A DNA stretch of 64,000 nt from Methanomassiliicoccales archaeon (GCA_036677555.1 JAVBWG010000006.1:70202-134201), one strand, 5' to 3'; numbered from the stretch's first letter, positions 11,750 to 28,923 are shown. Numbers and translations are program-made. The notes: generated by a model from the letters alone, not told the origin.

Positions 11750-12028
11750 TCATTCCCGGCAGACCAGGCTGATGGTGGGAGAGCCCTTGTCGGAATGGTT
11801 GCACTCCGGGCACAGCTCATAGTACAATGAGCACAGGCTGCGGTAAGGGTCGTATATCCTTCCGCATTCCCGGCACTTCAGGAACACGGAAAGCACTGGA
11901 CGGAACTCAAAACATTCAGTGATCCGGCTGCCGTTGAATGAGGTGCAGTTGTGCACACAGCAGTTATCGCAGAGGCTGCTCCGGCGGATATTCACCAGCC
12001 GGTGCTCGGTCACCTGAATTCGGACCAT
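11750..12028 (-). CDS. Small cysteine-rich protein (11 Cys), hypothetical
   Basis: CDNCCVHNC, CRECG and CPEC motifs. Lies 108 nt downstream of nrdD on the same strand. Confidence 0.45.
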   Translation of the reverse strand: MVRIQVTEHRLVNIRRSSLCDNCCVHNCTSFNGSRITECFEFRPVLSVFLKCRECGRIYDPYRSLCSLYYELCPECNHSDKGSPTISLVCRE

Positions 12029-16082: not shown

Positions 16083-16087
16083 GAAGT

Positions 16088-16398
16088 GCTAGGCCACGGG
16101 GGTTGCCGCCCGAACCGATAGAGGTTGACCGATCACCGACTCAGCCCCGCTCCCCTTCGAGCGTAGGTAGTCCGTGGTAAGGCTGTTCCCGTCAGGGCCT
16201 GACCCGTTCCCCACGATCAGAGCAAGGGGTGCCGCCCTCCAGCTGCACCGCGATGCTGCCACCGACCCCGTAGGACAGGGCCTCAACGCCAATGATCGGG
16301 CCTCTAGCGCTCCGGATACGACGTCCCCCGCTGTCACCCCCGCATATCGACGATTACGGTGTATAAGGACACGCCGAACGTCCCGGTCAAGCCTAGCG
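16088..16398 (-). ncRNA. Signal recognition particle RNA (archaeal 7S RNA)
   Basis: The ~311-nt region has only shadow-like ORFs. On the minus strand, 5' GCUAGGC pairs with 3' GCCUAGC (terminal helix). The internal GGUCAGGCCCUGACGGGAACAGCC parallels the SRP54-binding helix-8 consensus GGUCAGGUCCGGAAGGAAGCAGCC. The TATA box TTTTTAAATA (16420-16429, minus) is centred ~26 nt upstream of the proposed 5' end. Ends are approximate. Confidence 0.7.
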
Positions 16399-16429: not shown

Positions 16430-16562
16430 TTCTGCATCGGAGGACGAACGGCCGCTATAGCCAACAGCAGGATATCAAGTAATAAATAGTTTATTTGTGT
16501 TTAACATTTTAAAATTGAGTGTAGAATCAAATAATATAAATTTTTATCAAAGGGGCAGCGAG

Positions 16563-17447
16563 ATGGATAAAAATGGATCATTGAAAAGGAAGGAGGCCAT
16601 TGAAAAGGCATTGAAGGACGGTCGCTCGCACTTTGAGTTCCGCCCGGAGGCCCGCAGGTTCTTTCTTGCCAACTCGGTCAATATCGCCATCGGGATAGCC
16701 CTGGTCATCGCCGTATGGTGGATCGTGGCGGAAGCGATGATCCACACCCGCGGCGCACTGTTCCCCACCCCCCCAGAAACTTTCTCCGCGCTATGGAACG
16801 CCCTCAACGGTGCTGAACTGAACGGAGAGACGATCTACTACCACACCGGTTCATCCATGCTGCGTTGGGGAACCGGGTACGCCATAGCCCTGGTCATCGG
16901 GATCGTGGTCGGCATATCCTTCGGAACCTTGAGCCGCCTGTACGATATGGGCATGGTGTCCATCTACGTGATACAGATGATACCCGGCCTGGCCTGGGTT
17001 CCCATCGCCATGCTCATTTTCGGATTGGGCGAATCGGCGACCATATTCATCATTCTGATGACGGCCATGCCCCCCATCATCATCAACACCGCCGGCGGCA
17101 TACGCCAAGTTCCCCCGGTCTATACCAGGGTGGCGCTCATGTCCGGAAAGGACAGGCTGTCCCTGTTCGCCAGTGTTCTGATCCCCGCCGCATCCCTTTC
17201 CATAATCGACGGGATGCGCATCGGCCTCGCCAACGGTTGGAGGGTGCTTATCGCCGCGGAGATGGTCTTGGGCGCCATGGTCGGTCTCGGGGCCACGATA
17301 TACGATTCCCGTTACAGCCTGGATTTCGTCTCCGCCTTCATCTGCATAATCGTGATATGCTTCATCGGACTGGCGATAGAAAAACTGTTCTTCGCCGGCC
17401 TGGAGAACGCGGTAAGGAACCGTCTCGGACTGGACAAGGAGGCCTGA
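16563..17447 (+). CDS. ABC transporter permease, SsuC/TauC (nitrate/sulfonate/taurine) family
   Basis: About 6 TM helices with a typical family layout. Start moved to ATG 16563. Confidence 0.85.
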   Translation: MDKNGSLKRKEAIEKALKDGRSHFEFRPEARRFFLANSVNIAIGIALVIAVWWIVAEAMIHTRGALFPTPPETFSALWNALNGAELNGETIYYHTGSSMLRWGTGYAIALVIGIVVGISFGTLSRLYDMGMVSIYVIQMIPGLAWVPIAMLIFGLGESATIFIILMTAMPPIIINTAGGIRQVPPVYTRVALMSGKDRLSLFASVLIPAASLSIIDGMRIGLANGWRVLIAAEMVLGAMVGLGATIYDSRYSLDFVSAFICIIVICFIGLAIEKLFFAGLENAVRNRLGLDKEA

Positions 17448-17448
17448 G

Positions 17449-18249
17449 ATGCTCGCCTCCCTCAGGAACGTGTCCAAGGTGTTCGCCAATCCCCGCACAG
17501 GTAAGGGATTGGTGGCCCTGAACGATGTCAGCATCGAGGTCGAGCAGGGAGATTTTCTATGCCTGATCGGACCAAGCGGTTGCGGTAAGAGCACCACCCT
17601 GAACCTGCTGGCCGGGTTCGAGCATCCCAGCGAGGGAGAGGTTAGGTTCAAAGGGAAGCCCATCGCCGGCCCTTCGCCGGAACGGGGCGTCGTTTTCCAG
17701 GAGTTCAGCCTCTACCCCTGGATGGATGTGCTTCACAACGTGGCCTTCTCGGTCAGGACGGGAAGCGGATCGGAGAGGGAGGAGGTGGCCAGGAGATATT
17801 TGGGAATGGTCGGCCTATTGGACTTCGCCCATGCGATGCCCAACGAGCTCTCGGGGGGCATGAAGCAGCGGGTGGCCATAGCCCGAACCTTGGCCATGGA
17901 CCCGGACCTGCTGCTGATGGACGAGCCGTTCGGTTCTCTGGACGAGCAGACCCGGCGCAAACTGGACAATGAGGTTCTCAGCTTGTGGGAAGGACAGGAG
18001 AAGACAGTGGTCTTCGTCACCCACAGCATAGAGGAGGCATTGATGCTGGGGACCAGGGTGGTCCTCATGTCCGCCTCACCCGGACGTGTAAACAAGGAAT
18101 GGAGGATCGAATCGGCATGGCCTCGCGATCCCCTGTCCCCGGAGATGACCGCACTGAAGAAGGACATCGTGAAGAGCCTGCAGGTATGCTCCTGCGCCAA
18201 CGGCTCCCCCAGGGGCGGGTTCATCACCATGGGCGGCCTGGAAGATTGA
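17449..18249 (+). CDS. ABC transporter ATP-binding protein, SsuB/TauB-like
   Basis: GPSGCGKST, LSGGMKQRVAIAR, LLLMDEPFGSLD. Starts 1 nt after the permease stop. Confidence 0.9.
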   Translation: MLASLRNVSKVFANPRTGKGLVALNDVSIEVEQGDFLCLIGPSGCGKSTTLNLLAGFEHPSEGEVRFKGKPIAGPSPERGVVFQEFSLYPWMDVLHNVAFSVRTGSGSEREEVARRYLGMVGLLDFAHAMPNELSGGMKQRVAIARTLAMDPDLLLMDEPFGSLDEQTRRKLDNEVLSLWEGQEKTVVFVTHSIEEALMLGTRVVLMSASPGRVNKEWRIESAWPRDPLSPEMTALKKDIVKSLQVCSCANGSPRGGFITMGGLED

Positions 18250-18276
18250 ATATTGGAATGAAGGGAGGAACCAGAA

Positions 18277-19242
18277 ATGAACAGAAAATCGGTGGCGATC
18301 GTCCTTGTGATCGTTGTGGTGATCGCAGCAGTCGGCGTGGCATTCCTCTTGATGCCCCCCGATGAGGGCGAGATGGACCTGACCGTGGCCTACTCGGAGA
18401 AGATGAACTATGAGACGCTGATGGTCGCCAACGACAAGGGATACTTCGATGATGTGGGATTGAACGTCACCCCGGCCATCGTGACCGGCGGCATCCAGGC
18501 TGCGGAGGCAATCGTGACCGGCTCGGCCGACGTGGCCGCGATGGGGGACGCGCCTGCCGTGCAGCTCATCAGCAAAGGCATCGGTGCCAAGATAATCGGT
18601 CGCATCGCCGGTGCCGAGGGAATGCACCGCATCATCTCGGACGTCAACATCACCGCACCTGAGGACCTGAACGGCAAGAAGGTGGGCATGCAGCAGAGCT
18701 CCAGCTCGCACGGGGCGTTCATACAGTGGTGCGACGCCAATGATGTCAACACCGGCAACCTGACCTTCGTTTACCTGAACCCCAGCTACCTGGCGGAGGC
18801 AATGTACTCGGGCGAGATCGATGCCATGGTCGGAAGCGAGCCATGGGCCATCAATACCGAGAACCTGTGCGGCGGCTCGGTGCACGAACTTGGCAGCTCG
18901 TCCGGTCTGGGGAGCTCTTTCCCCATTGTTCTGGTGGCATCTCATAAGGCCATTTCCGAGAAGGGCGAGGCGCTCTCCCGCCTGCTTGAAGCCATGGACA
19001 TGGCCAATGATCACATCAACGCCGAATGGAACGATTCCATGGCTATATGCGCATCCCTCACCGGCCTCAGCTTTGATGACCAGTCAAAGGGCAGCGGCCT
19101 GCAGTTCTTCGAGCTGGGGTTCAACGCCACCGATGTGCAGAGCATCACCATGACCGCCATGGGCCTGGTGGACTTCGGAAAGATCAACGCCGTGCCGGTC
19201 ATAATGGACCACGTGGACCTTACCCACCTGCCGGAGGAGTGA
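18277..19242 (+). CDS. ABC transporter substrate-binding protein, NMT1/THI5/SsuA-like, TM-anchored
   Basis: N-terminal anchor AIVLVIVVVIAAVGVAFLL, followed by an SsuA/NMT1-like pattern (LTVAYSEKMNYETLMVANDKGYFDDVGLNVT, GSADVAAMGDAP). Confidence 0.75.
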   Translation: MNRKSVAIVLVIVVVIAAVGVAFLLMPPDEGEMDLTVAYSEKMNYETLMVANDKGYFDDVGLNVTPAIVTGGIQAAEAIVTGSADVAAMGDAPAVQLISKGIGAKIIGRIAGAEGMHRIISDVNITAPEDLNGKKVGMQQSSSSHGAFIQWCDANDVNTGNLTFVYLNPSYLAEAMYSGEIDAMVGSEPWAINTENLCGGSVHELGSSSGLGSSFPIVLVASHKAISEKGEALSRLLEAMDMANDHINAEWNDSMAICASLTGLSFDDQSKGSGLQFFELGFNATDVQSITMTAMGLVDFGKINAVPVIMDHVDLTHLPEE

Positions 19243-19246
19243 ACCA

Positions 19247-20308
19247 TTGGGGAGCAACGGGCGCCAGCTGTTCATGCGTTCCCTTGGGGACGAAATCCCT
19301 GAGGTCCCGCCGGTGTTCCTGCGGGACCTCACCCTGGGCCTCGATGAGACGGGATATACCACGCCGGAGGTCTGCGCAGGCGCCTACGATGCGGACAAAT
19401 CTGCAAGGTCCGTTCTGGCGCTGCATGAGCGATTGGGCCAGGACGCAGTCGTCGGCTGCATTCACTACGTGGGGCTGGAGATAGGGGCCCTTGGGGGGCA
19501 GGTGAAGTATCCCGAGCGGGGGATACCGAGCGTGGTGCGCCACCCGTTCCAGGATTCCGCCGACCCTGACCTGGTCCAATTGGACATGCGCCGGGAGGCG
19601 CCCTTTCCGAACGTGGCAGGGAGCTATCGCCTGGTCAGGGAGGGTCTCCAGGGTTCGGCGGCTCTCGTCTGCAACATCGAAGGCCCGGTGACCAAGGCTG
19701 CGCTGCTCAGGGGGATGGAGAACCTGGCCATGGACATGTACTTCGACAAGGGCCTGGCCGCCGAATACGTCGATTATGCCACAGGCCTCTCCATGGAGTT
19801 CCTTAAGGTCATCGCCTCCGAGACGGAACTGGACTGCTCGTTCCTGGCCTCGGCTTCCGACAACCCTGACATCTTCGGCCAGGAGGCGTTCCGTCGATTC
19901 ACGGTTCCCAACCTGGGCCGTCTGGTGCGCACAGCGGACGAACTCGGCCTGCCGACGGTCTTTCATCCGCACGGTGATCTCAGTTCACCGCAGAACCTGC
20001 CGCTGATGGAGGACATCATCGCCACGGGCGCGAGGGCGTTCCAATTCGCGGAGCGCAACGACCATATGCTGCTCAGGGAGGCGGCGGGGGGAAGGATCTC
20101 CCTCATGGGGGGCATCGACGCCTTCTCCACCCTGCTGCTGGGGCCGGCGGACCGGATCGTCCGGGAGACGGAGGGATTCCTTAATGACTTCCGTCCCTGG
20201 GACCGCTATGTGTTCATGTGCTCGTGCTCGCTGCACCGCGGCATGCCCCTTCAGCATGTGGACGTCATGATGGAGGCCGTCAGGAGGTTCGCTAAGAAAG
20301 GCATATGA
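19247..20308 (+). CDS. Uroporphyrinogen decarboxylase (URO-D) family protein, MtaA/MT2-like
   Basis: Length and overall pattern fit URO-D/MT2 TIM-barrel proteins: GCIHYVGLE, VCNIEGPVT, FHPHGD, MGGID, FMCSCS. TTG 19247 lies 8 nt after GGAGGAG; an alternative ATG is at 19274. Confidence 0.6.
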   Translation: MGSNGRQLFMRSLGDEIPEVPPVFLRDLTLGLDETGYTTPEVCAGAYDADKSARSVLALHERLGQDAVVGCIHYVGLEIGALGGQVKYPERGIPSVVRHPFQDSADPDLVQLDMRREAPFPNVAGSYRLVREGLQGSAALVCNIEGPVTKAALLRGMENLAMDMYFDKGLAAEYVDYATGLSMEFLKVIASETELDCSFLASASDNPDIFGQEAFRRFTVPNLGRLVRTADELGLPTVFHPHGDLSSPQNLPLMEDIIATGARAFQFAERNDHMLLREAAGGRISLMGGIDAFSTLLLGPADRIVRETEGFLNDFRPWDRYVFMCSCSLHRGMPLQHVDVMMEAVRRFAKKGI

Positions 20309-21195
20309 ACCACGGGGTGCCATATGTCCGATGCATGGCCCCGCCGGACGTCTCCGAAAAACCGCCTTGGCTGAGGACCAGGGCCGGACTGGCATCGGGC
20401 ATCGGCGTCCGGGAGGCCTTGGGGGGCCTCCGAACGGTCTGCGATTCATCCCGCTGCCCCAATCTGGGTGAATGCTGGGGAAAGGGGCATGCCACCTTCA
20501 TAATCCTGGGAAGCAGATGCACGCGCTCCTGCGCCTTCTGCGCCGTTCCATCGGGAGAACCGTCCGATGCAGATGAGGGCGAAGCGGAGAGGGTGGCCGA
20601 GGCCGTGAAGCGGTTGCGCCTCCGCCACGCGGTGATCACCTCGGTGACCAGGGACGACCTCCCGGATGGCGGGGCGAGGATCTTCGCCGATACCGTCAGA
20701 CAGATCAGATGGAACTGTCCGGGCACGACCGTCGAACTGCTGATACCCGACCTGCAGGGTGACCGGAAGGCCCTGGAGACCATCCTGGAGTCATCGCCTG
20801 ACGTATTGGGCCACAACCTGGAGACGGTCCGTTCGCTGCAGTGGATAAGGGACAGGAGGGCCAGCTACCGCCGCTCCCTGAACGTCCTGGCCACGGTCAG
20901 GGAGATATCGCCGGCCGCCATCACAAAGAGCTCCCTGATGCTGGGCCTGGGCGAAGGCAGGGACGAGGTGCTGGAAGCGTTCAGGGACCTGCTGGAGGTT
21001 GGGGTGGACCTTCTGACCCTGGGGCAATACCTTCCGCCAAAAGGAAGCTCCCTCCCGCTGCGCAGGTACGTCCCGCCCGAGGAGTTCCAGGAGCTGGAAA
21101 GGACCGCCAGGGGCCTGGGGTTCAGGGGAGTCCGCTCCGGACCGCTGGTCCGATCATCGTATGACGCTTATGCATTGTTCAAAGAGGTGATGTAA
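20305..21195 (+). CDS. lipA: Lipoyl synthase
   Basis: N-terminal cluster CPNLGECW, radical-SAM CTRSCAFC, and C-terminal RSSY. The ATG overlaps the upstream stop (ATATGA). Confidence 0.9.
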   Translation: MNHGVPYVRCMAPPDVSEKPPWLRTRAGLASGIGVREALGGLRTVCDSSRCPNLGECWGKGHATFIILGSRCTRSCAFCAVPSGEPSDADEGEAERVAEAVKRLRLRHAVITSVTRDDLPDGGARIFADTVRQIRWNCPGTTVELLIPDLQGDRKALETILESSPDVLGHNLETVRSLQWIRDRRASYRRSLNVLATVREISPAAITKSSLMLGLGEGRDEVLEAFRDLLEVGVDLLTLGQYLPPKGSSLPLRRYVPPEEFQELERTARGLGFRGVRSGPLVRSSYDAYALFKEVM

Positions 21196-21196
21196 A

Positions 21197-22252
21197 ATGC
21201 TGACAGAGGAATTTGATCCGCTCAGGGGAGATATGTTCCGCGTGATGGATGAGGAAGGCAATGTCGAGAAAGGCCGTATGCCCAAGATATCCAAGGAGCT
21301 CCTGCTGAAAGCCTACCGCACCATGCTGCTCACCCGGATGGCGGACGAGAAGGCCGTCAAGCTGCAGAGGCAGGGCCGGTTGGGCGCCTATCCGCCCAGC
21401 AAGGGTCAGGAGGCCAGCCAGCTGGGGCCGGCCATGGCCCTGAAGGAGGAGGACTGGCTGGTGTGGGCCTTCCGGGAGATGGGCGCGTTGCTCTGGAAGG
21501 GCATACCGCTGAGCACCCTATACCTCTATTGGATGGGAAACGAACTTGGCAACGTCTATCCTGATGGAGCGAGAGCAACCCCGTCCGTTGTACCGGTGGG
21601 CTCCCAGATATCCCATGCGGTGGGTATTGCATACGCCAGCAAACTCAGGGGGGAGAAGAGCGTGAGCCTTGCCTACTTCGGAGACGGCGCCACCTCGGAG
21701 GGGGATTTCCACGAAGGGCTGAACTTCGCCGGGGTCTATCGGACGCCGAACGTGTTCGTATGCCAGAACAACCAGTTCGCCATATCCACCCGGAGGTCCA
21801 GGCAGACGGCGTCCCCCACCATCGCACAGAAGGCGGCGGCGTACGGATTCCCGGGAATCCTGGTGGACGGGAACGATATACTGGCCATGTATGCGGCGTC
21901 CAAGGAGGCCGTCGAGCGCGCCCGGAATGGGGAAGGTCCCACGCTGATCGAATCCTACACCTATCGTCTGAGCGACCATACCACCTCGGACGATTGGCGC
22001 AAATACCGTTCCAAGGAGGAGGTGGCCGAATGGGAGCGCAAGGACCCCCTCAAGAGGTTCGGGACGTACCTCGCCGCTCAGGGCATGCTCAAGGACCCTG
22101 AAGGATTGACCAGGGAGCTGGGCGAGCTGGTGGAGAAGGCGGCCGCGGAGGCGGAGGCCGTGCCTGCGCCCGGCCGATCCGATGTGTTCGTCCACACTTA
22201 CGCCGAGATGCCGCCCTACCTCCGGCGTCAGATGGGGGGTGACGGGCAATGA
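21197..22252 (+). CDS. 2-oxoacid (pyruvate/branched-chain) dehydrogenase E1 component alpha subunit
   Basis: Close pattern match to Gram-positive PdhA / Thermoplasma E1alpha: QRQGRLGAYPPSKGQEASQ, TPP motif GDGATSEGDFHEGLNFA...VCQNNQFAIST. Confidence 0.9.
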   Translation: MLTEEFDPLRGDMFRVMDEEGNVEKGRMPKISKELLLKAYRTMLLTRMADEKAVKLQRQGRLGAYPPSKGQEASQLGPAMALKEEDWLVWAFREMGALLWKGIPLSTLYLYWMGNELGNVYPDGARATPSVVPVGSQISHAVGIAYASKLRGEKSVSLAYFGDGATSEGDFHEGLNFAGVYRTPNVFVCQNNQFAISTRRSRQTASPTIAQKAAAYGFPGILVDGNDILAMYAASKEAVERARNGEGPTLIESYTYRLSDHTTSDDWRKYRSKEEVAEWERKDPLKRFGTYLAAQGMLKDPEGLTRELGELVEKAAAEAEAVPAPGRSDVFVHTYAEMPPYLRRQMGGDGQ

Positions 22253-23214
22253 TGATGAACATGGTGCAGGCCATCAATGCCGCTCTGGCCGGGGAGATGG
22301 AACGTGACCCTTCGGTGGTCATCCTGGGCGAGGATGTCGGCGTCGACGGCGGCGTCTTCCGGGTCACGGACGGGCTTCTGGATCGTTTCGGGGAGCAGCG
22401 GGTCATGGACACCCCCCTGGCCGAAGCCGGCATCGCCGGAGTGGCCATCGGGATGGCCTTCAACGGCCTCCGGCCTGTCGCCGAGATCCAGTTCATGGGC
22501 TTCTCGTATCTCACGCTCAATCAGATGATCAATCATGCTGCCCGCATGCGCAACCGCACCAGGGGAAGGATCACCGTGCCCATGGTGCTGCGCATGCCCT
22601 ACGGCGCCGGCGTCAAGGCCTTGGAGCACCATTCCGAGAGCACCGAGGCGCTGTACGCGCAGATACCGGGGCTCAAGGTCGTGGTCCCTTCCACGCCCCT
22701 GGAGGCCAAAGGGCTTTTGACGTCATCAATACGCGACCCGGACCCGGTCATCTTCCTGGAGCCCACCCGCTCGTACCGCATGCTCAAGGAGGAGGTGCCG
22801 GACGGCGAATACCTGGTGCCGCTGGGAAAGGCCAGGACCGTGCAGGAGGGCGATGACGTCACAGTCATCGGATGGGGGGCGATGATACCCCTCATCCAGA
22901 GGGCGGTGGCGGAGATGCAGGCATCGGTGGAGATAATCGACCTGCGCACCATCTCCCCCATGGATTCGGATGCGGTGGTCGATTCCGTCAGGCGCACCGG
23001 AAGGGCGGTGGTGGTGCATGAGGCCCCGCGCTCCTTCGGCCCCGGGGCGGAGATAGCCTCCCGCATATATGAGGGGGCGATCCTGCAGCTGGAAGCGCCC
23101 GTGGAGCGCGTGGCCGCCCCGGACATCACGGTTCCGCTGCCGAAGGGCGAGGACCACTATTATGTGAACGAGAGGATGATCAGGGACGGCATCGAACGAA
23201 CGCTGAGGTTCTAG
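22249..23214 (+). CDS. 2-oxoacid dehydrogenase E1 component beta subunit
   Basis: GEDVGVDGGVFRVT, RVMDTPLAEAGIAG and the transketolase C-terminal pattern. 4-nt overlap with E1alpha. Confidence 0.9.
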   Translation: MMMNMVQAINAALAGEMERDPSVVILGEDVGVDGGVFRVTDGLLDRFGEQRVMDTPLAEAGIAGVAIGMAFNGLRPVAEIQFMGFSYLTLNQMINHAARMRNRTRGRITVPMVLRMPYGAGVKALEHHSESTEALYAQIPGLKVVVPSTPLEAKGLLTSSIRDPDPVIFLEPTRSYRMLKEEVPDGEYLVPLGKARTVQEGDDVTVIGWGAMIPLIQRAVAEMQASVEIIDLRTISPMDSDAVVDSVRRTGRAVVVHEAPRSFGPGAEIASRIYEGAILQLEAPVERVAAPDITVPLPKGEDHYYVNERMIRDGIERTLRF

Positions 23215-24456
23215 GTGGTCATGATGGCAACTGAGTTCAGGTTTCCGGACCTAGGCGAGGGGATCGCCGAGGGGGAGGTCAAGAAATGGCTGGTGAAGGT
23301 CGGCGACACGATCGCCAAGGACCAGTCCCTGGCCGAGGTGGAGACGGACAAGGCGGTGGTGGAGATACCGTCGCCGGTGGCCGGAAAGGTCCTTCGTCTG
23401 GACCACAAGGAGGGGGAGCTGGTCAAAGTCGGCGAGGTGCTGGCGGTCATCGGCGATGATGGCGAGACCGTCCGAAGCGCGAAGGCCCCGGAGCCGGCGG
23501 CGATCGAGGAGAGGCCTCCATCGGTGTCCGTGGTGGGCGAACTCCCCACGGATGAGGTGGTGGTCACCTCGGTAACCCAGAAGCGGTCGCCGCGGGACGT
23601 CAGGGCCATGCCGGCGGTGCGCAGGGCCGCCCGCGACCAGGGTGCGGACATAACTGCCGCCCGGGCGAGCGGTCCCAGCGGGCAGGTGCTGATATCTGAC
23701 CTGGAGTCCAGGCCGGCCCCCAGGACGGTGCCGAAGTTCGACATCTACGGCTATGTGGACAGGGTGCCCATACGCGGCATCCGGCGCACCACGGCCAAGA
23801 GGATGCTCGAATCGCAGGCGCGCACGGCCGCCGTCACCAGCATGGAGCAGGCCGACGTGACGCGGTTGGTGGGGATGAGGGAGAGGCTCAAGGGGCCGAT
23901 GAAGGAGCAGAAGGGGGTGAATCTCACCTACATGCCGTTCATCGTCACCGCCATCGTCCGAGCGCTCAAGATGCATCCCCTGCTGAACTCGATGATCGAT
24001 GATGAGCGCGAAGAGCTGATCATCAAGAAATATTACAACATCGGGGTGGCGGTGGCCATCGACGACGGGCTGATGGTGCCGGTGATAAAGGCCGCCGACC
24101 AGAAGTCCCTCTGGGAACTGGCCGAGGAGATTGCGCTCCTGGCGAAGAGCGCCCAGGAACGCAAGATAGACCTGGCGGACCTGAAGGGGGGAACGTTCAG
24201 CATCACCAATTACGGCGTGTTCGGCGGCACGTACGGAACGCCGATAATCAACTACCCGGAGACGGCCATACTGGGGATAGGGAGGATAATGGACGGGCCG
24301 CTGGCGGTTGACGGGGTGGTGAAGGTGCGCAAGGTCCTGCCCCTGTCCCTGACCTTCGACCACCGCGCTTACGATGGGGCGGTGGCCGCCAAGTTCCTGC
24401 GCGACCTGGTGAGGTTGCTGGAGAACCCGGAGGAGCTGCTGCTGAACATGGAATGA
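23215..24456 (+). CDS. Dihydrolipoamide acyltransferase (E2) of the 2-oxoacid dehydrogenase complex
   Basis: Lipoyl domain (EVETDKAVVEIPSP), peripheral subunit-binding domain (AMPAVRRAARDQGADI), catalytic motif DHRAYDG. Start is GTG 23215 or ATG 23221/23224. Confidence 0.9.
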   Translation: MVMMATEFRFPDLGEGIAEGEVKKWLVKVGDTIAKDQSLAEVETDKAVVEIPSPVAGKVLRLDHKEGELVKVGEVLAVIGDDGETVRSAKAPEPAAIEERPPSVSVVGELPTDEVVVTSVTQKRSPRDVRAMPAVRRAARDQGADITAARASGPSGQVLISDLESRPAPRTVPKFDIYGYVDRVPIRGIRRTTAKRMLESQARTAAVTSMEQADVTRLVGMRERLKGPMKEQKGVNLTYMPFIVTAIVRALKMHPLLNSMIDDEREELIIKKYYNIGVAVAIDDGLMVPVIKAADQKSLWELAEEIALLAKSAQERKIDLADLKGGTFSITNYGVFGGTYGTPIINYPETAILGIGRIMDGPLAVDGVVKVRKVLPLSLTFDHRAYDGAVAAKFLRDLVRLLENPEELLLNME

Positions 24457-25206
24457 TCAGCGTTCGAACGTCCAATCGTCATTGGCATAGCGCAGCTTGG
24501 CGATGACCTCCGCCCTTGCCAGCTCATCGGAGGTGAGGTCCCCGGCGTACCATTCCCGGTTCATGATGAAGGCGTTGGCAATGGCCGCCGCCACATACTC
24601 CCAGGGGACCTTCCTCTGCTCCCTCACGCTGGTGACGCGTTCCGCCGGGTCGGCCAGGGAATGGGATTCCAGCTTGTCCTTCGGCACCTTGAGCACGGAG
24701 AACATCTTGGCCCGGTCCAGGTCGTAGATGAGCGTGCCATGCTGCATGAAGATCCCCTTTCGGCGGGACTGCGCGCTCCCGCTGATCTTCTTGCCGTTCA
24801 CCAGCACGTCGTTGATCGGCTCGAACGTCCCATCGATGCCGATGAGCTTGAGAGCATTTACCGTCCAGCCGCCTATCTCACGGTACGCTTCGTTGATGTC
24901 GGCCGGCATCATCTCCTCCGGGCAGATGACGCTGTAGGTGATCTCCCGGTCGTGGAACACCGCGCCTCCGCCGGTGCTCCTCCGCACAACGTCGACGCCG
25001 AGCCGCCGGCACCCTTCCAGGTCCACGACCTCGTCCAGCTTCTGGAAGCGGCCGATGCTCACCGCAGCGGGCTCCCAGCCGTAGAAACGCAAGGTCGGGC
25101 CGGCGACCCGGAAGGATACCGCCTCTGCGATCGCCTCGTCCAGCGCCATGTTGTAGGCCGCGCCGGCCTTCTCGTATCCGAGGACCCTCCATCTCTTTCT
25201 CAGCAT
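24457..25206 (-). CDS. lplA: Lipoate-protein ligase A, catalytic domain protein
   Basis: RRSTGGGAVFHD and GKKISGSAQ motifs. 249 aa without the C-terminal accessory domain, as in Thermoplasma LplA. Confidence 0.85.
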   Translation of the reverse strand: MLRKRWRVLGYEKAGAAYNMALDEAIAEAVSFRVAGPTLRFYGWEPAAVSIGRFQKLDEVVDLEGCRRLGVDVVRRSTGGGAVFHDREITYSVICPEEMMPADINEAYREIGGWTVNALKLIGIDGTFEPINDVLVNGKKISGSAQSRRKGIFMQHGTLIYDLDRAKMFSVLKVPKDKLESHSLADPAERVTSVREQRKVPWEYVAAAIANAFIMNREWYAGDLTSDELARAEVIAKLRYANDDWTFER

Positions 25207-25475
25207 CTCAATCCCCTCAGCAGGAAGGCCAGGTCAGACGGGCCGAAGCCCGCCGTCCGGCATCCGTTCCTTGACAGGTAATCAGATATATCGCCTTCCG
25301 GGTCCTCGGACCTCCAGACCTTCCTTTCGACAAGAAAGGTCTCCAGTCCCTCCAGCCCTTCCTCGGGATGAAAGAAGAAATCGCCGCTGATCCTGATGGC
25401 CTCGACCTCATCGTTCTGACAGGTGATGTCCAGGATCAGGGTCTTTCCTCCGGGGACCCTGAGCCTCCGTTCCAA
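25200..25475 (-). CDS. lplB: Lipoate-protein ligase accessory (C-terminal domain) protein, LplB-like
   Basis: 91-aa protein that overlaps the lplA start by 7 nt. Its position and size match the separate LplB of the bipartite Thermoplasma ligase. Assigned mainly by context. Confidence 0.6.
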   Translation of the reverse strand: MERRLRVPGGKTLILDITCQNDEVEAIRISGDFFFHPEEGLEGLETFLVERKVWRSEDPEGDISDYLSRNGCRTAGFGPSDLAFLLRGLRC

Positions 25476-25479
25476 CGGT

Positions 25480-25764
25480 TCACCCCTTGGCCCAGGCCAC
25501 CAGCTTGGCCATGTCGATGCGGCCGCAGATGGCCTTTCCCGTGACCTCGTTATAAAAGGCAGGAACGCCCAGGTCCCCGCCGCAGGCCGGGGCGATGGTG
25601 TCCGCCAGGGAGCGCATTAGCTTGGCGTTCTCCTCGTTGTGCCATACTTCCAGCCTCTCCAGCTTGATCCCCGTCTCGGCCTCGAACTGGTCGACCACCG
25701 GCGTCAGCTTGCGACAGTGGGGGCATTCCCTTCCATGGAACCAGATCAGTCTACTTCCGCTCAT
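25480..25764 (-). CDS. Thioredoxin-fold protein (CPHC active site), glutaredoxin/thioredoxin-like
   Basis: WFHGRECPHCRKL near the N-terminus, 94 aa. 4-nt overlap with the upstream FTR-like gene. Confidence 0.7.
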   Translation of the reverse strand: MSGSRLIWFHGRECPHCRKLTPVVDQFEAETGIKLERLEVWHNEENAKLMRSLADTIAPACGGDLGVPAFYNEVTGKAICGRIDMAKLVAWAKG

Positions 25765-26192
25765 TTGTCATCCCTCTTGACGAAAAGCCCGCACCAGCAT
25801 TCCCCCTCCTCCTTGAAGGTCGGCTGCCGGATGAAGTTGCATGGGCAGATGAGATTGAGGTCCTTGCCGCGATCGCCGGTGGTGATTCGGCAGGGGCAGT
25901 AGCGCTGCCCCTTCCCATTCAGGTTCTCCAGGACCCCTCTTGAAAGAAGCTCCACCTCGTCGGCCTTGTCCGTCAGCTTGATGGTCGCGCTCCGCTCGGA
26001 GAACTGCCTCCAGGCCGCCACGACCTTTGACTGGTCATCCAGGGGCGCGTGGTCCTTGCCGATTATCTCCAACGCCTCGCCGAGGTCCGAGAGCACGAAG
26101 GCGTTCTTCGCACCGCAGGTAGGACATACCTCCGGCGGCTTGTTGCCGAGGTGTATGTCATTGCAGACGTGGCATCTCCAAAGCTTCTTCAT
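25761..26192 (-). CDS. Rubredoxin-like domain fused to ferredoxin:thioredoxin reductase catalytic-subunit-like domain (FTRc/FDR-like)
   Basis: N-terminal CHVC-x14-CPTC rubredoxin-type knuckles. C-terminal CPC-x14-CPC-x13-CWCGLF resembles the FTRc CPC...CPC...CHCMLF motif. Confidence 0.7.
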   Translation of the reverse strand: MKKLWRCHVCNDIHLGNKPPEVCPTCGAKNAFVLSDLGEALEIIGKDHAPLDDQSKVVAAWRQFSERSATIKLTDKADEVELLSRGVLENLNGKGQRYCPCRITTGDRGKDLNLICPCNFIRQPTFKEEGECWCGLFVKRDDK

Positions 26193-26238
26193 TCTATCCC
26201 GGTAGCATACCGTGCCGCCAAGATAAAATGCTTAAGGT

Positions 26239-26745
26239 TCACCATCTCTCGCGATGCACCCTTCCTTCATCATACCGGTCGATGAGCTTGCGCTCCTCGG
26301 CCGGATGGCCGAAAGGAATGAGGGAGAAGGGGATCACCGTATCAGGAACGCCCACGAGATCGCGCAGCCCCTTCACCCTCTCCTCGATCGGGTATATGCC
26401 CAGCCACACTGCCCCCAGATTGAGCTGGGTGGCCATTATCAGCACGTTCTCGGTGGCGGCCGAGCAGTCCTGCACCCAGAACCCGGGATACTTCTCCAGC
26501 GATGGATCGCCGCAGATCAGGATGGCCCCGGCGCATTCCTTGAGCATCTTGGCGTAGGGATGGAACTCCATGACCCTCTCGAGCGTAGAGCGGTCCTGGA
26601 CGACCACGAAGTGCCAAGGTTTTTCGTTACCGGCGGAAGGGGCGGACATACCTGCCTCCAGAAGCTTTCTCACATCCTTCTCCTCCACGTCCTGCGCCGT
26701 ATAGCGCCGGACGCTCCTCCTTGCAAGGATAGGGTCCTTCCTCAT
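26239..26745 (-). CDS. Nitroreductase family protein
   Basis: RRSVRRYT, SAPSAGNEKPWHFVVV, and a size of 168 aa. Confidence 0.85.
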   Translation of the reverse strand: MRKDPILARRSVRRYTAQDVEEKDVRKLLEAGMSAPSAGNEKPWHFVVVQDRSTLERVMEFHPYAKMLKECAGAILICGDPSLEKYPGFWVQDCSAATENVLIMATQLNLGAVWLGIYPIEERVKGLRDLVGVPDTVIPFSLIPFGHPAEERKLIDRYDEGRVHRERW

Positions 26746-28536: not shown

Positions 28537-28923
28537 ATGGCCGGCGACATCAAGGACGTGAGCGACGAGCTGTTCCTGGACCTGCTGCGCAAGGAGAAGC
28601 GCTTCATCGTGCTGGAGTTCTGGTCCCCGGGGTGCTCCGTGTGCAAGGAGGTGGAGCCCGAGGTCCTCAGGGCCCAGAAGGAGCTGGGTCCGGATACGGT
28701 GTTCATGAGGATAAACACCGACCACAACACGCAGCTGGCCTCCAGGTACCAGATAACAGGCACCCCGACCTTCGTCTACTTCTGCAAGGGCGAGAAGATC
28801 GGCGGCGCCGTCGGTTACATCAACGCCACGGTGCTTCGGAACACCGTCAAGGACCTAATCCGGCATTCGGCGTCCTGCCCCCCGGGGAAGCGCGTCAGCT
28901 ACGAGATGGATGGCTACGGCTGA
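28537..28923 (+). CDS. Thioredoxin family protein
   Basis: FWSPGCSVCKEVEPEV active-site region (CxxC) and GTPTFVYF cis-Pro region. Confidence 0.75.
   Translation: MAGDIKDVSDELFLDLLRKEKRFIVLEFWSPGCSVCKEVEPEVLRAQKELGPDTVFMRINTDHNTQLASRYQITGTPTFVYFCKGEKIGGAVGYINATVLRNTVKDLIRHSASCPPGKRVSYEMDGYG

What the first reader, a model, noticed from the sequence alone, without database searches (positions are those of the whole stretch)
21197..26192. E3-less 2-oxoacid dehydrogenase operon abutted by an FTR-like / thioredoxin / lplB / lplA operon: a possible ferredoxin-linked lipoyl redox system
In Thermoplasma and in bacteria, E1alpha-E1beta-E2 is normally followed by the E3 dihydrolipoamide dehydrogenase gene. 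Here E2 ends at 24456 and the very next base is the stop of a convergent operon (TGATCA junction). That operon encodes, in order, a rubredoxin-fused ferredoxin:thioredoxin-reductase catalytic-subunit homologue, a CPHC thioredoxin-fold protein, LplB and LplA. Its junctions are a 4-nt overlap, a 4-nt gap and a 7-nt overlap. Co-transcribing a disulfide reductase/thioredoxin pair with lipoate ligase, next to an E3-less complex, suggests a specific role in a strict anaerobe. The dihydrolipoyl/lipoyl couple on E2 may be cycled via thioredoxin and an Fe-S disulfide reductase to ferredoxin rather than to NAD+ via a flavoprotein E3. A precedent for lipoyl-thioredoxin-fold electron transfer is the Lpd-SucB-AhpD-AhpC system of M. 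tuberculosis.
Basis: inference. Interest (0 to 1): 0.7.

Follow-up and report, generated by a model that had tools for sequence, protein, structure and literature searches.

The report
E3-less oxoacid dehydrogenase with Fe-S/thioredoxin partner
A strictly anaerobic methanogen carries a complete 2-oxoacid dehydrogenase gene set that lacks its usual flavoprotein third enzyme and sits, in three phyla, next to an iron-sulfur disulfide reductase and a small thioredoxin-like protein that may do that enzyme's job, though this is unproven.

Summary
On the + strand lie lipA, E1alpha, E1beta and E2. Converging on them on the - strand are a rubredoxin-fused FTR/FDR-like Fe-S protein, a CPHC thioredoxin-fold protein, LplB and LplA. 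The TGATCA junction and the 4-nt, 4-nt and 7-nt junctions are as described.

The window comes from a Methanomassiliicoccales archaeon. No E3 gene is present in the 64-kb window, in 80 related loci (10 kb each side) or in 3 loci chosen by E2. A published comparison of Euryarchaeota orders reports lpdA absent from this order.

The FTR-like/Trx pair adjoins E1/E2 in 38 of 46 Methanomassiliicoccales species, 4 of 4 Bathyarchaeia and 3 of 18 bacteria. One bacterium has a tight oadA-oadB-FTRlike-Trx-E1alpha-E1beta-E2 operon.

My best reading (about 0.45) is that the pair replaces E3 by re-oxidising dihydrolipoyl-E2. Four points count against it:
- The pair also occurs without any dehydrogenase nearby.
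- Known FDRs run in the reductive direction.
- Ferredoxin is thermodynamically a poor acceptor.
- A class III ribonucleotide reductase is a regional neighbour.

I found no prior description of this link. I rate it a new variant of a known kind that is directly testable.

The parts
20305..21195 (+). lipA, lipoyl synthase (radical SAM); ends one base before E1alpha
   Evidence: NCBIfam NF004019 lipoyl synthase 354 bits, above the 203 cutoff. Pfam Radical_SAM. Conserved next to E1alpha in 37 of 42 Methanomassiliicoccales loci.
21197..22252 (+). E1alpha, ThDP-dependent 2-oxoacid decarboxylase subunit
   Evidence: Pfam E1_dh 8e-89. TIGR03181 PDH_E1_alph_x 446.9 bits, above the 411.35 cutoff. The GDG...NN ThDP motif is present in the translation.
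22249..23214 (+). E1beta; 4-nt overlap with E1alpha
   Evidence: Pfam Transket_pyr 3e-47 and Transketolase_C 4e-30.
23215..24456 (+). [quoted passage not shown]
   Evidence: Pfam Biotin_lipoyl 4e-24, E3_binding 5e-9 and 2-oxoacid_dh 6e-86. Motifs read from the translation. Public gene calls start at 23224 (410 aa).
24457..25206 (-). LplA, catalytic subunit of the lipoate-protein ligase; its stop abuts the E2 stop (TGATCA)
   Evidence: Pfam LplA-B_cat 3e-50. Junction read.
25200..25475 (-). Probable LplB, small subunit of the lipoate-protein ligase (TTG start)
   Evidence: NCBIfam LplB 6.6e-11 but 42 bits, below the 65 cutoff. Pfam Lip_prot_lig_C 0.008. The position is conserved in most Methanomassiliicoccales loci.
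25480..25764 (-). Small thioredoxin-fold protein with active site E-C-P-H-C, an invariant EVWH motif and a second invariant cysteine pair (C61, C80)
   Evidence: AF2 pLDDT 93.2. Foldseek TM-scores of 0.6-0.7 to thioredoxins. Invariant columns. Adjacent to the FTR-like gene in 78 of 79 loci. Fused to it in L047.
25761..26192 (-). Rubredoxin-like domain (CxxC...CxxC, residues 7-26) fused to the N-terminus of an FTR-catalytic/FDR-type [4Fe-4S] disulfide reductase domain (CPC-x14-CPC-x13-CWC)
   Evidence: Pfam RUBY_RBDX 1e-9 and FeThRed_B 4e-15. All ten cysteines are invariant in 22 homologues. Closest solved structures are 4tpu (M. acetivorans FDR, 1e-19) and 7pwe (Grx-FDR fusion, 5e-16).
26193..26238 (-). 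46-nt spacer upstream of the FTR-like gene containing an A/T-rich TTTTATC element; possibly the operon's own archaeal promoter (inference only)
   Evidence: Sequence read. No test was possible because the promoter scanner is sigma-70 only.
26239..26745 (-). Nitroreductase-family (FMN) protein immediately upstream on the same strand; conserved there only in the closest relatives
   Evidence: Pfam Nitroreductase 8.5e-23. Present upstream of the FTR-like gene in 12 of loci L006-L018 (absent in L011 and L016) and in no locus beyond them.

Best explanation
The region encodes a 2-oxoacid (probably pyruvate or branched-chain) dehydrogenase complex together with its own lipoylation machinery: LipA, and LplA with LplB. 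The canonical flavoprotein E3 is missing.

I propose that the two small proteins encoded opposite E2 replace E3, in three steps:
1. The CPHC thioredoxin-fold protein, in its disulfide form, oxidises dihydrolipoyl-E2 by thiol-disulfide exchange. This regenerates the dithiolane that E1 needs.
2. The reduced Trx-like protein is re-oxidised by the active-site disulfide of the FTR/FDR-type [4Fe-4S] enzyme. This enzyme class couples a two-electron dithiol/disulfide to one-electron carriers without flavin or NAD.
3. Electrons leave one at a time through the fused rubredoxin-like Fe(Cys)4 domain to an unidentified acceptor. That acceptor could be a ferredoxin kept largely oxidised, or a higher-potential carrier.

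Shown here: the gene content, intact catalytic motifs, the folds, the absence of E3 locally, and the conserved linkage.

Inferred: the physical interaction with the lipoyl domain, the direction of electron flow and the acceptor.
For: 1. E1alpha, E1beta and E2 are intact, with the ThDP, ETDKA and DHRxxDG motifs, and are conserved at 55-93% identity across the order. They are presumably functional, yet they cannot turn over without an oxidant for dihydrolipoyl.
2. No E3 is present in the 64-kb window, within 10 kb in 80 loci from about 80 species, or in 3 loci chosen through E2 alone. lpdA is reported absent from Methanomassiliicoccales (PMC10804542).
3. The FTR-like/Trx pair adjoins E2 in 38 of 46 Methanomassiliicoccales loci (39 counting the frameshifted E2 of L021), in 4 of 4 Bathyarchaeia loci and in 3 of 18 bacterial loci. 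It does so in three different gene orders.
4. In bacterium L076 the order is oadA-oadB-FTRlike-Trx-E1alpha-E1beta-E2, with gaps of 2, 49, -4 and 1 nt between the five genes from FTRlike to E2 and about 120 nt between oadB and FTRlike. Here the pair occupies the place of an E3 gene, directly downstream of a pyruvate-producing decarboxylase.
5. The pair is a redox couple. It is adjacent in 78 of 79 loci and fused into one ORF in L047. A Grx-FDR fusion has been crystallised (7pwe).
6. There is a precedent for a thioredoxin system standing in for a missing E3 in a strict anaerobe: E. acidaminophilum (PMC4056300, citing Meyer et al. 1991).
7. The active site is CPHC, the DsbA-type motif, and some relatives are membrane-anchored or secreted. 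Both are compatible with a disulfide-donating role, but this is weak evidence.
Against: 1. The module is not dedicated to the dehydrogenase. It stands alone in 15 of 18 bacterial loci and in L008, L017 and L034. It is kept with lplA but without E1/E2 in L013, L016, L018 and L046. It also exists as a split Rd / Trx / FTRc trio, with no dehydrogenase nearby, in other bacteria.
2. The characterised FDRs run from ferredoxin to disulfide (PMC6262447). Standard potentials make dihydrolipoyl to ferredoxin uphill by about 100-130 mV (established values, not computed here). The scheme works only if E1 drives the lipoyl pool very reduced, or if the acceptor has a higher potential.
3. A class III ribonucleotide reductase gene (12137-14245) is a conserved regional neighbour in 26 Methanomassiliicoccales loci. 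FDR plus an NrdH-like protein is the known reductant of the Methanosarcina barkeri enzyme (Wei et al. 2015, as cited in PMC6262447).
4. Genome-wide absence of E3 rests on one published presence/absence matrix. I could not scan whole genomes.
5. There are no interaction or activity data.
Confidence: 0.45

Rival explanations
1. The pair is a general ferredoxin-driven disulfide reductase system: ferredoxin to the Rd domain, to the FDR [4Fe-4S]/disulfide, to the Trx-like protein, to various targets. Its main clients lie elsewhere, for example the class III ribonucleotide reductase, peroxiredoxins or methionine sulfoxide reductase. Its position next to the dehydrogenase genes in Methanomassiliicoccales would be regional synteny, or at most reflect lipoyl-E2 being one of several substrates.
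For: - Known FDRs act in this direction and serve NrdH-like or Trx-like partners in Methanosarcina (PMC6262447).
- nrdD is a conserved neighbour 2-9 kb away in 26 loci.
- The pair persists where E1/E2 are deleted (L008, L017, L034) and in most bacterial loci.
- A split trio without any dehydrogenase occurs in L090 and L091.
- The pair lies next to rubrerythrin and desulfoferrodoxin in L074, and peroxiredoxin or Msr genes lie nearby in L087 and L089.
Against: - It does not explain how an E3-less complex turns over.
- It does not explain why the pair re-appears directly beside E1/E2 in three phyla in different gene orders, including the tight five-gene bacterial operon.
- nrdD is never adjacent to the pair, and it is absent from the Bathyarchaeia and bacterial loci.
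Confidence: 0.2
2. The dehydrogenase complex acts as an electron source for thiol-based defence. E1 reduces lipoyl-E2 at the expense of a 2-oxoacid, and the Trx-like protein carries these electrons to peroxidases or other disulfide targets. This would be analogous to lipoyl-SucB to AhpD to AhpC in M. tuberculosis. The FTR-like enzyme would be a second, ferredoxin-linked entry into the same Trx pool.
For: - The first step has the same chemistry as in the best explanation.
- Peroxiredoxin, Msr, rubrerythrin and superoxide reductase genes occur near the module in some loci.
- Borziak et al. suggested that lipoylation retained in some methanogens may serve oxygen tolerance (PMC3904984).
Against: - No peroxiredoxin is conserved in the cluster.
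- The FTR-like gene is strictly coupled to the Trx-like gene (78 of 79 loci, and fused in L047). That coupling is unnecessary if the Trx simply passes electrons onward.
- No AhpD-like protein is present.
Confidence: 0.12
3. Redox regulation or maintenance. As in chloroplast FTR/Trx signalling, the pair reports the ferredoxin redox state to the complex. For example, it could reduce or re-activate the lipoyl group or regulatory cysteines of E1, E2 or LipA, without being part of the catalytic cycle.
For: FTR/Trx is the classical ferredoxin-dependent regulatory system (established knowledge). In Methanomassiliicoccales the pair is co-transcribed with lplB-lplA.
Against: - It leaves the catalytic cycle without an oxidant.
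- The link to lplAB is lineage-specific, whereas the link to E1/E2 is not.
- No regulatory cysteine pair was identified.
Confidence: 0.1
4. The neighbourhood is functionally irrelevant. Dihydrolipoyl-E2 is re-oxidised by an unrecognised flavoprotein encoded elsewhere, such as an NADH oxidase or CoA-disulfide reductase-type enzyme, thioredoxin reductase or a divergent E3. Alternatively, the complex performs only a non-cycling or non-oxidative reaction.
For: - E3 genes are often unlinked to E1/E2 in bacteria (established knowledge).
- I could not scan whole genomes.
- The published absence is based on orthologue annotation.
- E2 retains a peripheral-subunit-binding (E3_binding) domain.
Against: - lpdA is reported absent from the order.
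- The peripheral-subunit-binding domain also binds E1 in alpha2beta2-type complexes (established knowledge).
- The repeated cross-phylum adjacency of the pair would be left unexplained.
Confidence: 0.1

Closest known systems
Ferredoxin:disulfide reductase (FDR) of Methanosarcina acetivorans (PDB 4tpu) and the Grx-FDR fusion of Desulfotalea psychrophila (PDB 7pwe)
   Same: Both share the FTR-catalytic-type domain with the CPC...CPC...CxC cysteines (profile E-values 1e-19 and 5e-16). Both have an accessory rubredoxin-type Fe(Cys)4 domain (4tpu) and a small Trx/Grx-fold partner, which is fused in 7pwe and in L047.
   Different: - The rubredoxin domain is N-terminal here and C-terminal in 4tpu.
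- The third motif is an invariant CWC here, against CYC in 4tpu and 7pwe and CHC in plant FTR.
- The partner is a distinct ECPHC/EVWH family.
- The genomic partner here is an E3-less 2-oxoacid dehydrogenase. I found no report of that for any FDR.
Canonical 2-oxoacid dehydrogenase complexes (for example the Thermoplasma acidophilum E1alpha-E1beta-E2-E3 operon, or Geobacillus PDH)
   Same: Heterotetrameric-type E1alpha/E1beta. [quoted passage not shown] Dedicated LplA/LplB and LipA lipoylation.
   Different: There is no FAD/NAD-dependent E3 in the operon, the window or the neighbourhood, and it is reported absent from the order. The host is a strictly anaerobic methanogen, whereas obligately anaerobic archaea generally lack these complexes and lipoylation (PMC3904984).
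Thioredoxin system substituting for the missing E3 (P3 / L-protein) of glycine decarboxylase in Eubacterium acidaminophilum
   Same: A strict anaerobe whose genome lacks dihydrolipoamide dehydrogenase. A thioredoxin-type protein is proposed to take electrons from a dihydrolipoyl protein (PMC4056300, citing Meyer et al. 1991).
   Different: In that case the reductase partner is an NADP-linked flavoprotein thioredoxin reductase, and the lipoyl protein is GcvH. Here the partner is a flavin-free Fe-S enzyme, and the lipoyl protein is an E2.
Lpd-SucB-AhpD-AhpC antioxidant chain of Mycobacterium tuberculosis
   Same: A lipoyl-E2 exchanges electrons with a CxxC protein outside the classical catalytic cycle.
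   Different: AhpD is not thioredoxin-fold. Electrons there enter from NADH through a normal E3. No AhpD or AhpC homologue is part of the cluster here.
Plant and cyanobacterial ferredoxin:thioredoxin reductase (FTR)
   Same: The same catalytic-subunit fold and six-cysteine cluster/disulfide site (Pfam FeThRed_B; PDB 7bzk and 2pvd hits).
   Different: No variable subunit is encoded nearby. The His of CHC is replaced by Trp. A rubredoxin domain is fused. The partner is not a WCGPC thioredoxin.

Membership tests
2-oxoacid dehydrogenase complex (E1/E2/E3) | ThDP-dependent E1alpha/E1beta | tested here: met
   E1_dh 8e-89. TIGR03181 446.9 bits, above the 411.35 cutoff. Transket_pyr and Transketolase_C.
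2-oxoacid dehydrogenase complex (E1/E2/E3) | E2 with a lipoyl domain (lipoyl-lysine motif) and a catalytic domain with DHRxxDG | tested here: met
   Biotin_lipoyl 4e-24, E3_binding 5e-9 and 2-oxoacid_dh 6e-86. ETDKA and DHRAYDG read in the translation.
2-oxoacid dehydrogenase complex (E1/E2/E3) | FAD/NAD-dependent dihydrolipoamide dehydrogenase (E3) | tested here: not met
   No GxGxxG...CxxxxC ORF in the window. No tblastn or motif hit in 80 loci within 10 kb. No Pyr_redox gene in 3 further loci. lpdA reported absent from the order. Whole genomes could not be scanned.
FTR catalytic subunit / ferredoxin:disulfide reductase (FDR) | Six cysteines in CPC...CPC...CxC that bind the [4Fe-4S] cluster and form the active disulfide | tested here: met
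   C99, C101, C116, C118, C132 and C134 are invariant in 22 sequences. Pfam FeThRed_B 56 bits, above the 22 cutoff. 4tpu and 7pwe are the best PDB matches.
FTR catalytic subunit / ferredoxin:disulfide reductase (FDR) | His in the CHC motif (plant FTR), and a variable subunit | tested here: not met
   Trp133 is invariant in place of His. No FTR variable-subunit gene lies in the operon. This makes the protein FDR-like rather than a plant-type FTR.
FTR catalytic subunit / ferredoxin:disulfide reductase (FDR) | Ferredoxin-dependent disulfide reduction, with the [4Fe-4S] cluster present | not testable with these tools
   This needs protein chemistry. The AF2 model has only moderate confidence around the cluster site (pLDDT about 58 for residues 91-120).
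Thioredoxin superfamily | Thioredoxin fold with CxxC at the N-terminus of helix 1 and a cis-Pro loop | tested here: met
   AF2 pLDDT 93.2 with beta-alpha-beta ... beta-beta-alpha topology. CPHC at residues 14-17, before helix 15-31. P68 invariant. Foldseek probability 1.0 and TM-scores of 0.6-0.7 to many thioredoxins.
Thioredoxin superfamily | Canonical thioredoxin sequence family (WCGPC motif; Pfam PF00085 above threshold) | tested here: not met
   The motif is ECPHC. PF00085 scores 18 bits, below the 23.5 cutoff. This is a distinct small family: 226 representatives at E <= 1e-10 among 1.84 billion proteins.
Bipartite lipoate-protein ligase LplA/LplB | A catalytic LplA domain plus a separate small C-terminal-domain protein | tested here: inconclusive
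   LplA-B_cat 3e-50 is clear. The LplB assignment is weak: NF053749 scores 42 bits against a 65 cutoff, and Pfam gives 0.008. Its position and size are conserved.
Lipoyl synthase LipA | Radical-SAM CX3CX2C motif plus N-terminal CX4CX5C auxiliary-cluster motif; family HMM above cutoff | tested here: met
   NF004019 scores 354 bits, above the 203 cutoff. CDSSRCPNLGEC and CTRSCAFC are present in the translation.
M. tuberculosis Lpd-SucB-AhpD-AhpC type system | An AhpD-type CxxC protein and AhpC peroxiredoxin coupled to a lipoyl-E2 that is reduced by Lpd | tested here: not met
   No AhpD, AhpC or Lpd homologue lies in the cluster. A peroxiredoxin appears near the cluster only in one relative (L087).

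The most novel reading that the evidence does not exclude
This would be a previously unrecognised type of 2-oxoacid dehydrogenase complex. Its third component is not a flavoprotein using NAD+. It is a flavin-free two-protein relay: a CPHC thioredoxin-fold protein plus a rubredoxin-fused FDR-type [4Fe-4S] disulfide reductase. The relay re-oxidises dihydrolipoyl-E2 and releases the electrons one at a time to ferredoxin or another iron-sulfur carrier. That would let a lipoate-dependent, 'aerobic-type' complex operate in strict anaerobes (methanogens, Bathyarchaeia and some Aminicenantes-like bacteria). The whole cassette appears to move between phyla as a unit.
Probability: 0.35. Interest if true: 0.85.

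Novelty: new variant of a known kind. Interest (0 to 1): 0.72.

Why it matters
2-Oxoacid dehydrogenase complexes are textbook three-enzyme machines that always end in an NAD-linked flavoprotein. They are regarded as a hallmark of aerobic metabolism, and obligately anaerobic archaea were reported to have lost them (PMC3904984).

Here a whole order of strictly anaerobic methanogens keeps E1, E2 and the lipoylation enzymes but no E3. It always has the same Fe-S disulfide reductase/thioredoxin pair next door. If that pair closes the catalytic cycle, three things follow:
- It would define a new electron outlet for lipoate chemistry, one-electron Fe-S carriers instead of NAD+.
- It would give the widespread but poorly understood FDR family a concrete metabolic client.
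- It would explain how lipoate-dependent oxidative decarboxylation can function in ferredoxin-based anaerobic metabolism.

It would also change how pyruvate and branched-chain oxoacid metabolism is reconstructed in Methanomassiliicoccales, which are gut and rumen methanogens of applied interest. The hypothesis is directly testable with four small recombinant proteins from a cultured organism, Methanomassiliicoccus luminyensis.

Tried and rejected
1. I looked for E3 in three ways. A motif scan of the window in six frames found none. tblastn with E. coli Lpd at E <= 1, plus a motif scan, was run on 80 loci. It gave only a 25%-identity FAD protein without CxxxxC in a Methanosarcinales locus (L068) and a 55-residue fragment in L033.

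2. I searched for prior art linking FTR/FDR to lipoyl proteins or to Methanomassiliicoccales dehydrogenases. Nothing was found. The library lacks many subscription papers, and the original FDR papers (Kumar 2015, Wei 2015, Meyer 1991) could not be opened. may have been weakened by the 'oxoacid' word-start rule.

3. I tested whether co-transcription with lplAB is the key link, and rejected it. That arrangement is specific to Methanomassiliicoccales, whereas E1/E2 is the common denominator.

4. I looked for another lipoyl protein (GcvH- or LbpA-like) near the pair in loci that lack E1/E2. None was found.

5. The E2 homologue search gave only Methanomassiliicoccales E2s at >= 56% identity. I therefore obtained no E3-containing outgroup operon and no archaeal E3 query.

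6. I considered a reversed (reductive carboxylating) complex driven by ferredoxin through the pair. I rejected it on thermodynamic grounds, because electrons arriving at lipoyl (about -290 mV) cannot drive acyl-CoA carboxylation (about -500 mV).

7. The sigma-70 promoter and terminator scan is uninformative for an archaeon.

8. Using the CPHC motif as proof of an oxidising potential is not safe. As I recall, small archaeal thioredoxins such as MJ0307 also carry CPHC yet are reducing.

Full report
WHAT IS IN THE SEQUENCE

On the + strand:
- lipA, 20305-21195. Lipoyl synthase NF004019 at 354 bits, above the 203 cutoff.
- E1alpha, 21197-22252. E1_dh 8e-89; TIGR03181 at 446.9 bits, above its cutoff.
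- E1beta, 22249-23214.
- E2, 23215-24456. It has a lipoyl domain with ETDKA, an E3_binding/peripheral-subunit-binding domain, and a catalytic domain with DHRAYDG.

On the - strand, converging on E2:
- A 143-aa protein (26192-25761). It has an N-terminal rubrerythrin-type rubredoxin domain and an FTR-catalytic domain.
- A 94-aa ECPHC protein (25764-25480).
- A probable LplB (25475-25200).
- LplA (25206-24457).

The junctions are exactly as described. TGATCA lies at 24454-24459. The other junctions are an ATGA overlap, a 4-nt gap and an ATGCTGA overlap.

An MtaA/URO-D-family gene overlaps lipA by 4 nt, so the + strand operon is longer than stated.

ORGANISM

Exact and near-exact copies of the proteins lie on contigs of Methanomassiliicoccales MAGs. 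The closest is UBA472, at 92% identity. These are H2-dependent methylotrophic methanogens and strict anaerobes (established knowledge).

IS E3 REALLY MISSING?

No frame of the 64-kb window contains a dinucleotide-binding motif followed by CxxxxC.

In 80 loci from the genome collection, each extending up to 10 kb either side of the FTR-like gene, tblastn with E. coli Lpd at E <= 1 and the motif scan found no E3. Three further loci reached through E2 homologues, chosen without regard to the FTR-like gene, show the same gene order and no Pyr_redox gene.

I could not scan whole genomes myself, so genome-wide absence rests on that paper.

THE TWO SMALL PROTEINS

The FTR-like protein keeps all six cysteines of the FTR cluster/disulfide site, as CPC-x14-CPC-x13-CWC. 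It also keeps the four rubredoxin cysteines. All of these are invariant in 22 homologues.

Its nearest solved relatives are two FDRs:
- The Methanosarcina acetivorans ferredoxin:disulfide reductase, 4tpu, E = 1e-19. Its rubredoxin domain is at the other end of the protein.
- The Desulfotalea Grx-FDR fusion, 7pwe.

Plant FTRs are more distant. The His of the plant CHC motif is an invariant Trp here and a Tyr in the two FDR structures.

The 94-aa protein is below Pfam's thioredoxin threshold but folds confidently as a thioredoxin. The AF2 model has pLDDT 93, and Foldseek gives TM-scores of 0.6-0.7 to many thioredoxins.

Its family is small: 226 representatives at E <= 1e-10 among 1.84 billion proteins. 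The family signature is ECPHC, EVWH, a second invariant cysteine pair (C61, C80) and a cis-Pro. Some distant members are membrane-anchored or secreted.

The two genes are adjacent in 78 of 79 loci and fused into one ORF in a Bathyarchaeota genome (L047). They are therefore almost certainly a redox pair.

CONSERVED LINKAGE

tblastn of the window's proteins against the 80 loci gave the following.

| Lineage | Linkage found |
|---|---|
| Methanomassiliicoccales | LplA follows the pair in 47 of 50 informative loci; E2 in 38 of 46 (39 counting a frameshifted E2 in L021); LipA in 37 of 42 |
| Bathyarchaeia | The pair converges on E2-E1beta-E1alpha-LplA in 4 of 4 loci |
| Bacteria (Aminicenantes-like MAGs) | The pair usually stands alone at a guaB...panD site; in 3 of 18 loci it is followed by E1alpha-E1beta-E2 on the same strand |

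In L076 the bacterial genes form a tight operon, oadA-oadB-FTRlike-Trx-E1alpha-E1beta-E2. It runs directly from an oxaloacetate decarboxylase, which makes pyruvate, into the dehydrogenase.

The common denominator across phyla is therefore E1/E2 and not the lipoate ligase. The E1 and E2 proteins of these bacteria are 47-64% identical to the archaeal ones. This suggests that the cassette has moved between phyla as a unit.

EVIDENCE THAT TEMPERS THE CLAIM

1. The pair is kept where the dehydrogenase is locally absent. This applies to L008, L017 and L034. It also applies, with lplA retained, to L013, L016, L018 and L046. No other lipoyl protein lies nearby in those loci.

2. In more distant bacteria the same three modules occur as separate Rd, Trx-like and FTRc genes with no dehydrogenase nearby (L090, L091). 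One Iainarchaeum locus places the pair beside rubrerythrin and desulfoferrodoxin. The module is therefore older and more general than its link to the dehydrogenase.

3. A class III ribonucleotide reductase (12137-14245) is a conserved regional neighbour in 26 Methanomassiliicoccales loci. An FDR with an NrdH-like partner is the known reductant of the M. barkeri enzyme (cited in PMC6262447).

4. Characterised FDRs work from ferredoxin towards disulfides. With textbook potentials (lipoyl about -290 mV, ferredoxin about -420 mV), the flow from dihydrolipoyl to ferredoxin is uphill.

On point 4, the flow could still run if the strongly exergonic E1 step keeps the lipoyl pool almost fully reduced and ferredoxin is kept oxidised. 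It could also run if the rubredoxin domain hands electrons to a higher-potential acceptor. This is reasoning, not a result.

MOST LIKELY MECHANISM (confidence about 0.45)

The Trx-like protein, in its disulfide form, re-oxidises dihydrolipoyl-E2. The FDR-type enzyme re-oxidises the Trx-like protein at its cluster-linked disulfide. Electrons then leave singly through the rubredoxin domain.

This follows the classical logic of a missing enzyme plus a conserved neighbour with the right chemistry. A biochemical precedent exists in Eubacterium acidaminophilum. It lacks E3, and the thioredoxin system is thought to take electrons from the glycine decarboxylase lipoyl protein (PMC4056300, citing Meyer et al. 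1991).

The rivals, scored in the rivals section, are:
- A general ferredoxin-driven reductase system with other clients, such as RNR or peroxidases.
- A 2-oxoacid-fuelled antioxidant chain.
- Redox regulation of the complex.
- An unrecognised flavoprotein encoded elsewhere.

COMPARISON WITH WHAT IS KNOWN, AND NOVELTY

The parts are members of known families: an E1/E2 dehydrogenase core, LipA, LplA, an FDR-type reductase and a thioredoxin-fold protein. The complex fails the E3 criterion of a canonical 2-oxoacid dehydrogenase complex. The reductase fails the plant-FTR criteria (CHC His, variable subunit). The Trx fails the canonical thioredoxin sequence criteria.

Obligately anaerobic archaea were reported to have lost lipoylation and these complexes (PMC3904984). 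That study did not mention Methanomassiliicoccus.

I found no paper connecting FDR/FTR-like proteins with lipoyl proteins or with this order's dehydrogenase genes. The library is incomplete, however.

I classify the finding as a new variant of a known kind. It has a credible and cheaply testable hypothesis that, if true, would add a new kind of third component to a textbook enzyme complex.

Noticed in passing
window 12137-14245 (-): A class III anaerobic ribonucleotide reductase, NrdD (Pfam NRDD 6e-143, with an ATP-cone). It is a conserved regional neighbour of the cluster in 26 Methanomassiliicoccales loci. It comes within about 2-4 kb of the FTR-like/Trx pair in species that have deleted the dehydrogenase genes. 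This matters because FDR plus an NrdH-like protein reduces the Methanosarcina barkeri class III RNR.
   Followed up: partly
window 11750-12028 (-): A 92-aa Cys-rich ORF (…SLCDNCCVHNC…) just downstream of nrdD. It has no Pfam match and is conserved next to nrdD in L008 and L016. Its function is unknown.
   Followed up: no
window 16087-16398 (-): Archaeal SRP RNA (Rfam RF01857, 168 bits). A spurious ORF of about 100 aa ('MVRLFPSGPDPF…') that overlaps this SRP RNA locus recurs in ORF lists of related loci.
   Followed up: yes
window 19247-20308 (+), with 16497-19242 upstream: An MtaA/CmuA-family (URO-D fold) methyltransferase-like gene overlaps lipA by 4 nt. It follows three ABC-transporter genes (NMT1-type binding protein). 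The + strand operon may therefore be transporter-MtaA-like-lipA-E1alpha-E1beta-E2. This link is seen only in the closest relatives (10 of loci L006-L018).
   Followed up: partly
window 28537-28923 (+): A second, conventional thioredoxin (Pfam Thioredoxin 2e-17) with the atypical active site GCSVC. It lies 2.3 kb from the cluster and is conserved at that position in 17 related loci.
   Followed up: partly
window 26239-26745 (-): A nitroreductase-family FMN protein lies 46 nt upstream of the FTR-like gene on the same strand. It is conserved there only in the closest relatives (12 of loci L006-L018). It could be an additional electron-transfer partner, or it could be unrelated.
   Followed up: partly
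L047 9968-10777 (+): In one Bathyarchaeota MAG the rubredoxin-FDR protein and the Trx-like protein are fused in frame into one 269-aa ORF. This may be a Rosetta-stone fusion or an assembly artefact.
   Followed up: partly
L076 6882-14041 (+): A bacterial MAG (labelled Eubacteriales) has oxaloacetate decarboxylase alpha and beta genes immediately upstream of FTRlike-Trx-E1alpha-E1beta-E2. This suggests an oxaloacetate to pyruvate to acetyl-CoA module without E3.
   Followed up: partly
L090 5741-6545 and L091 2520-3318: A split form of the module, with separate genes of about 90 aa for rubredoxin, the Trx-like protein and the FTR catalytic domain, in the order Rd, Trx, FTRc. No dehydrogenase genes lie nearby.
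   Followed up: partly
P0314, P0332, P0331, P0355: Distant members of the Trx-like family carry N-terminal signal or transmembrane segments and large extracytoplasmic domains. The ECPHC/EVWH family therefore also has secreted or membrane-anchored forms.
   Followed up: no
P0020, P0022, P0035, P0043, P0052; loci L044, L061-L063: A subclade of the FTR-like protein (about 191 aa) carries two tandem rubredoxin-like domains instead of one. It keeps the same Trx / LplBA / E2 neighbourhood.
   Followed up: partly
L066 9421-9903 and equivalent genes in L070, L079 and L085: In Aminicenantes-like bacteria a small DUF2769 protein with a lipoprotein-like or Tat-like N-terminus is conserved immediately upstream of the FTR-like gene.
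   Followed up: no
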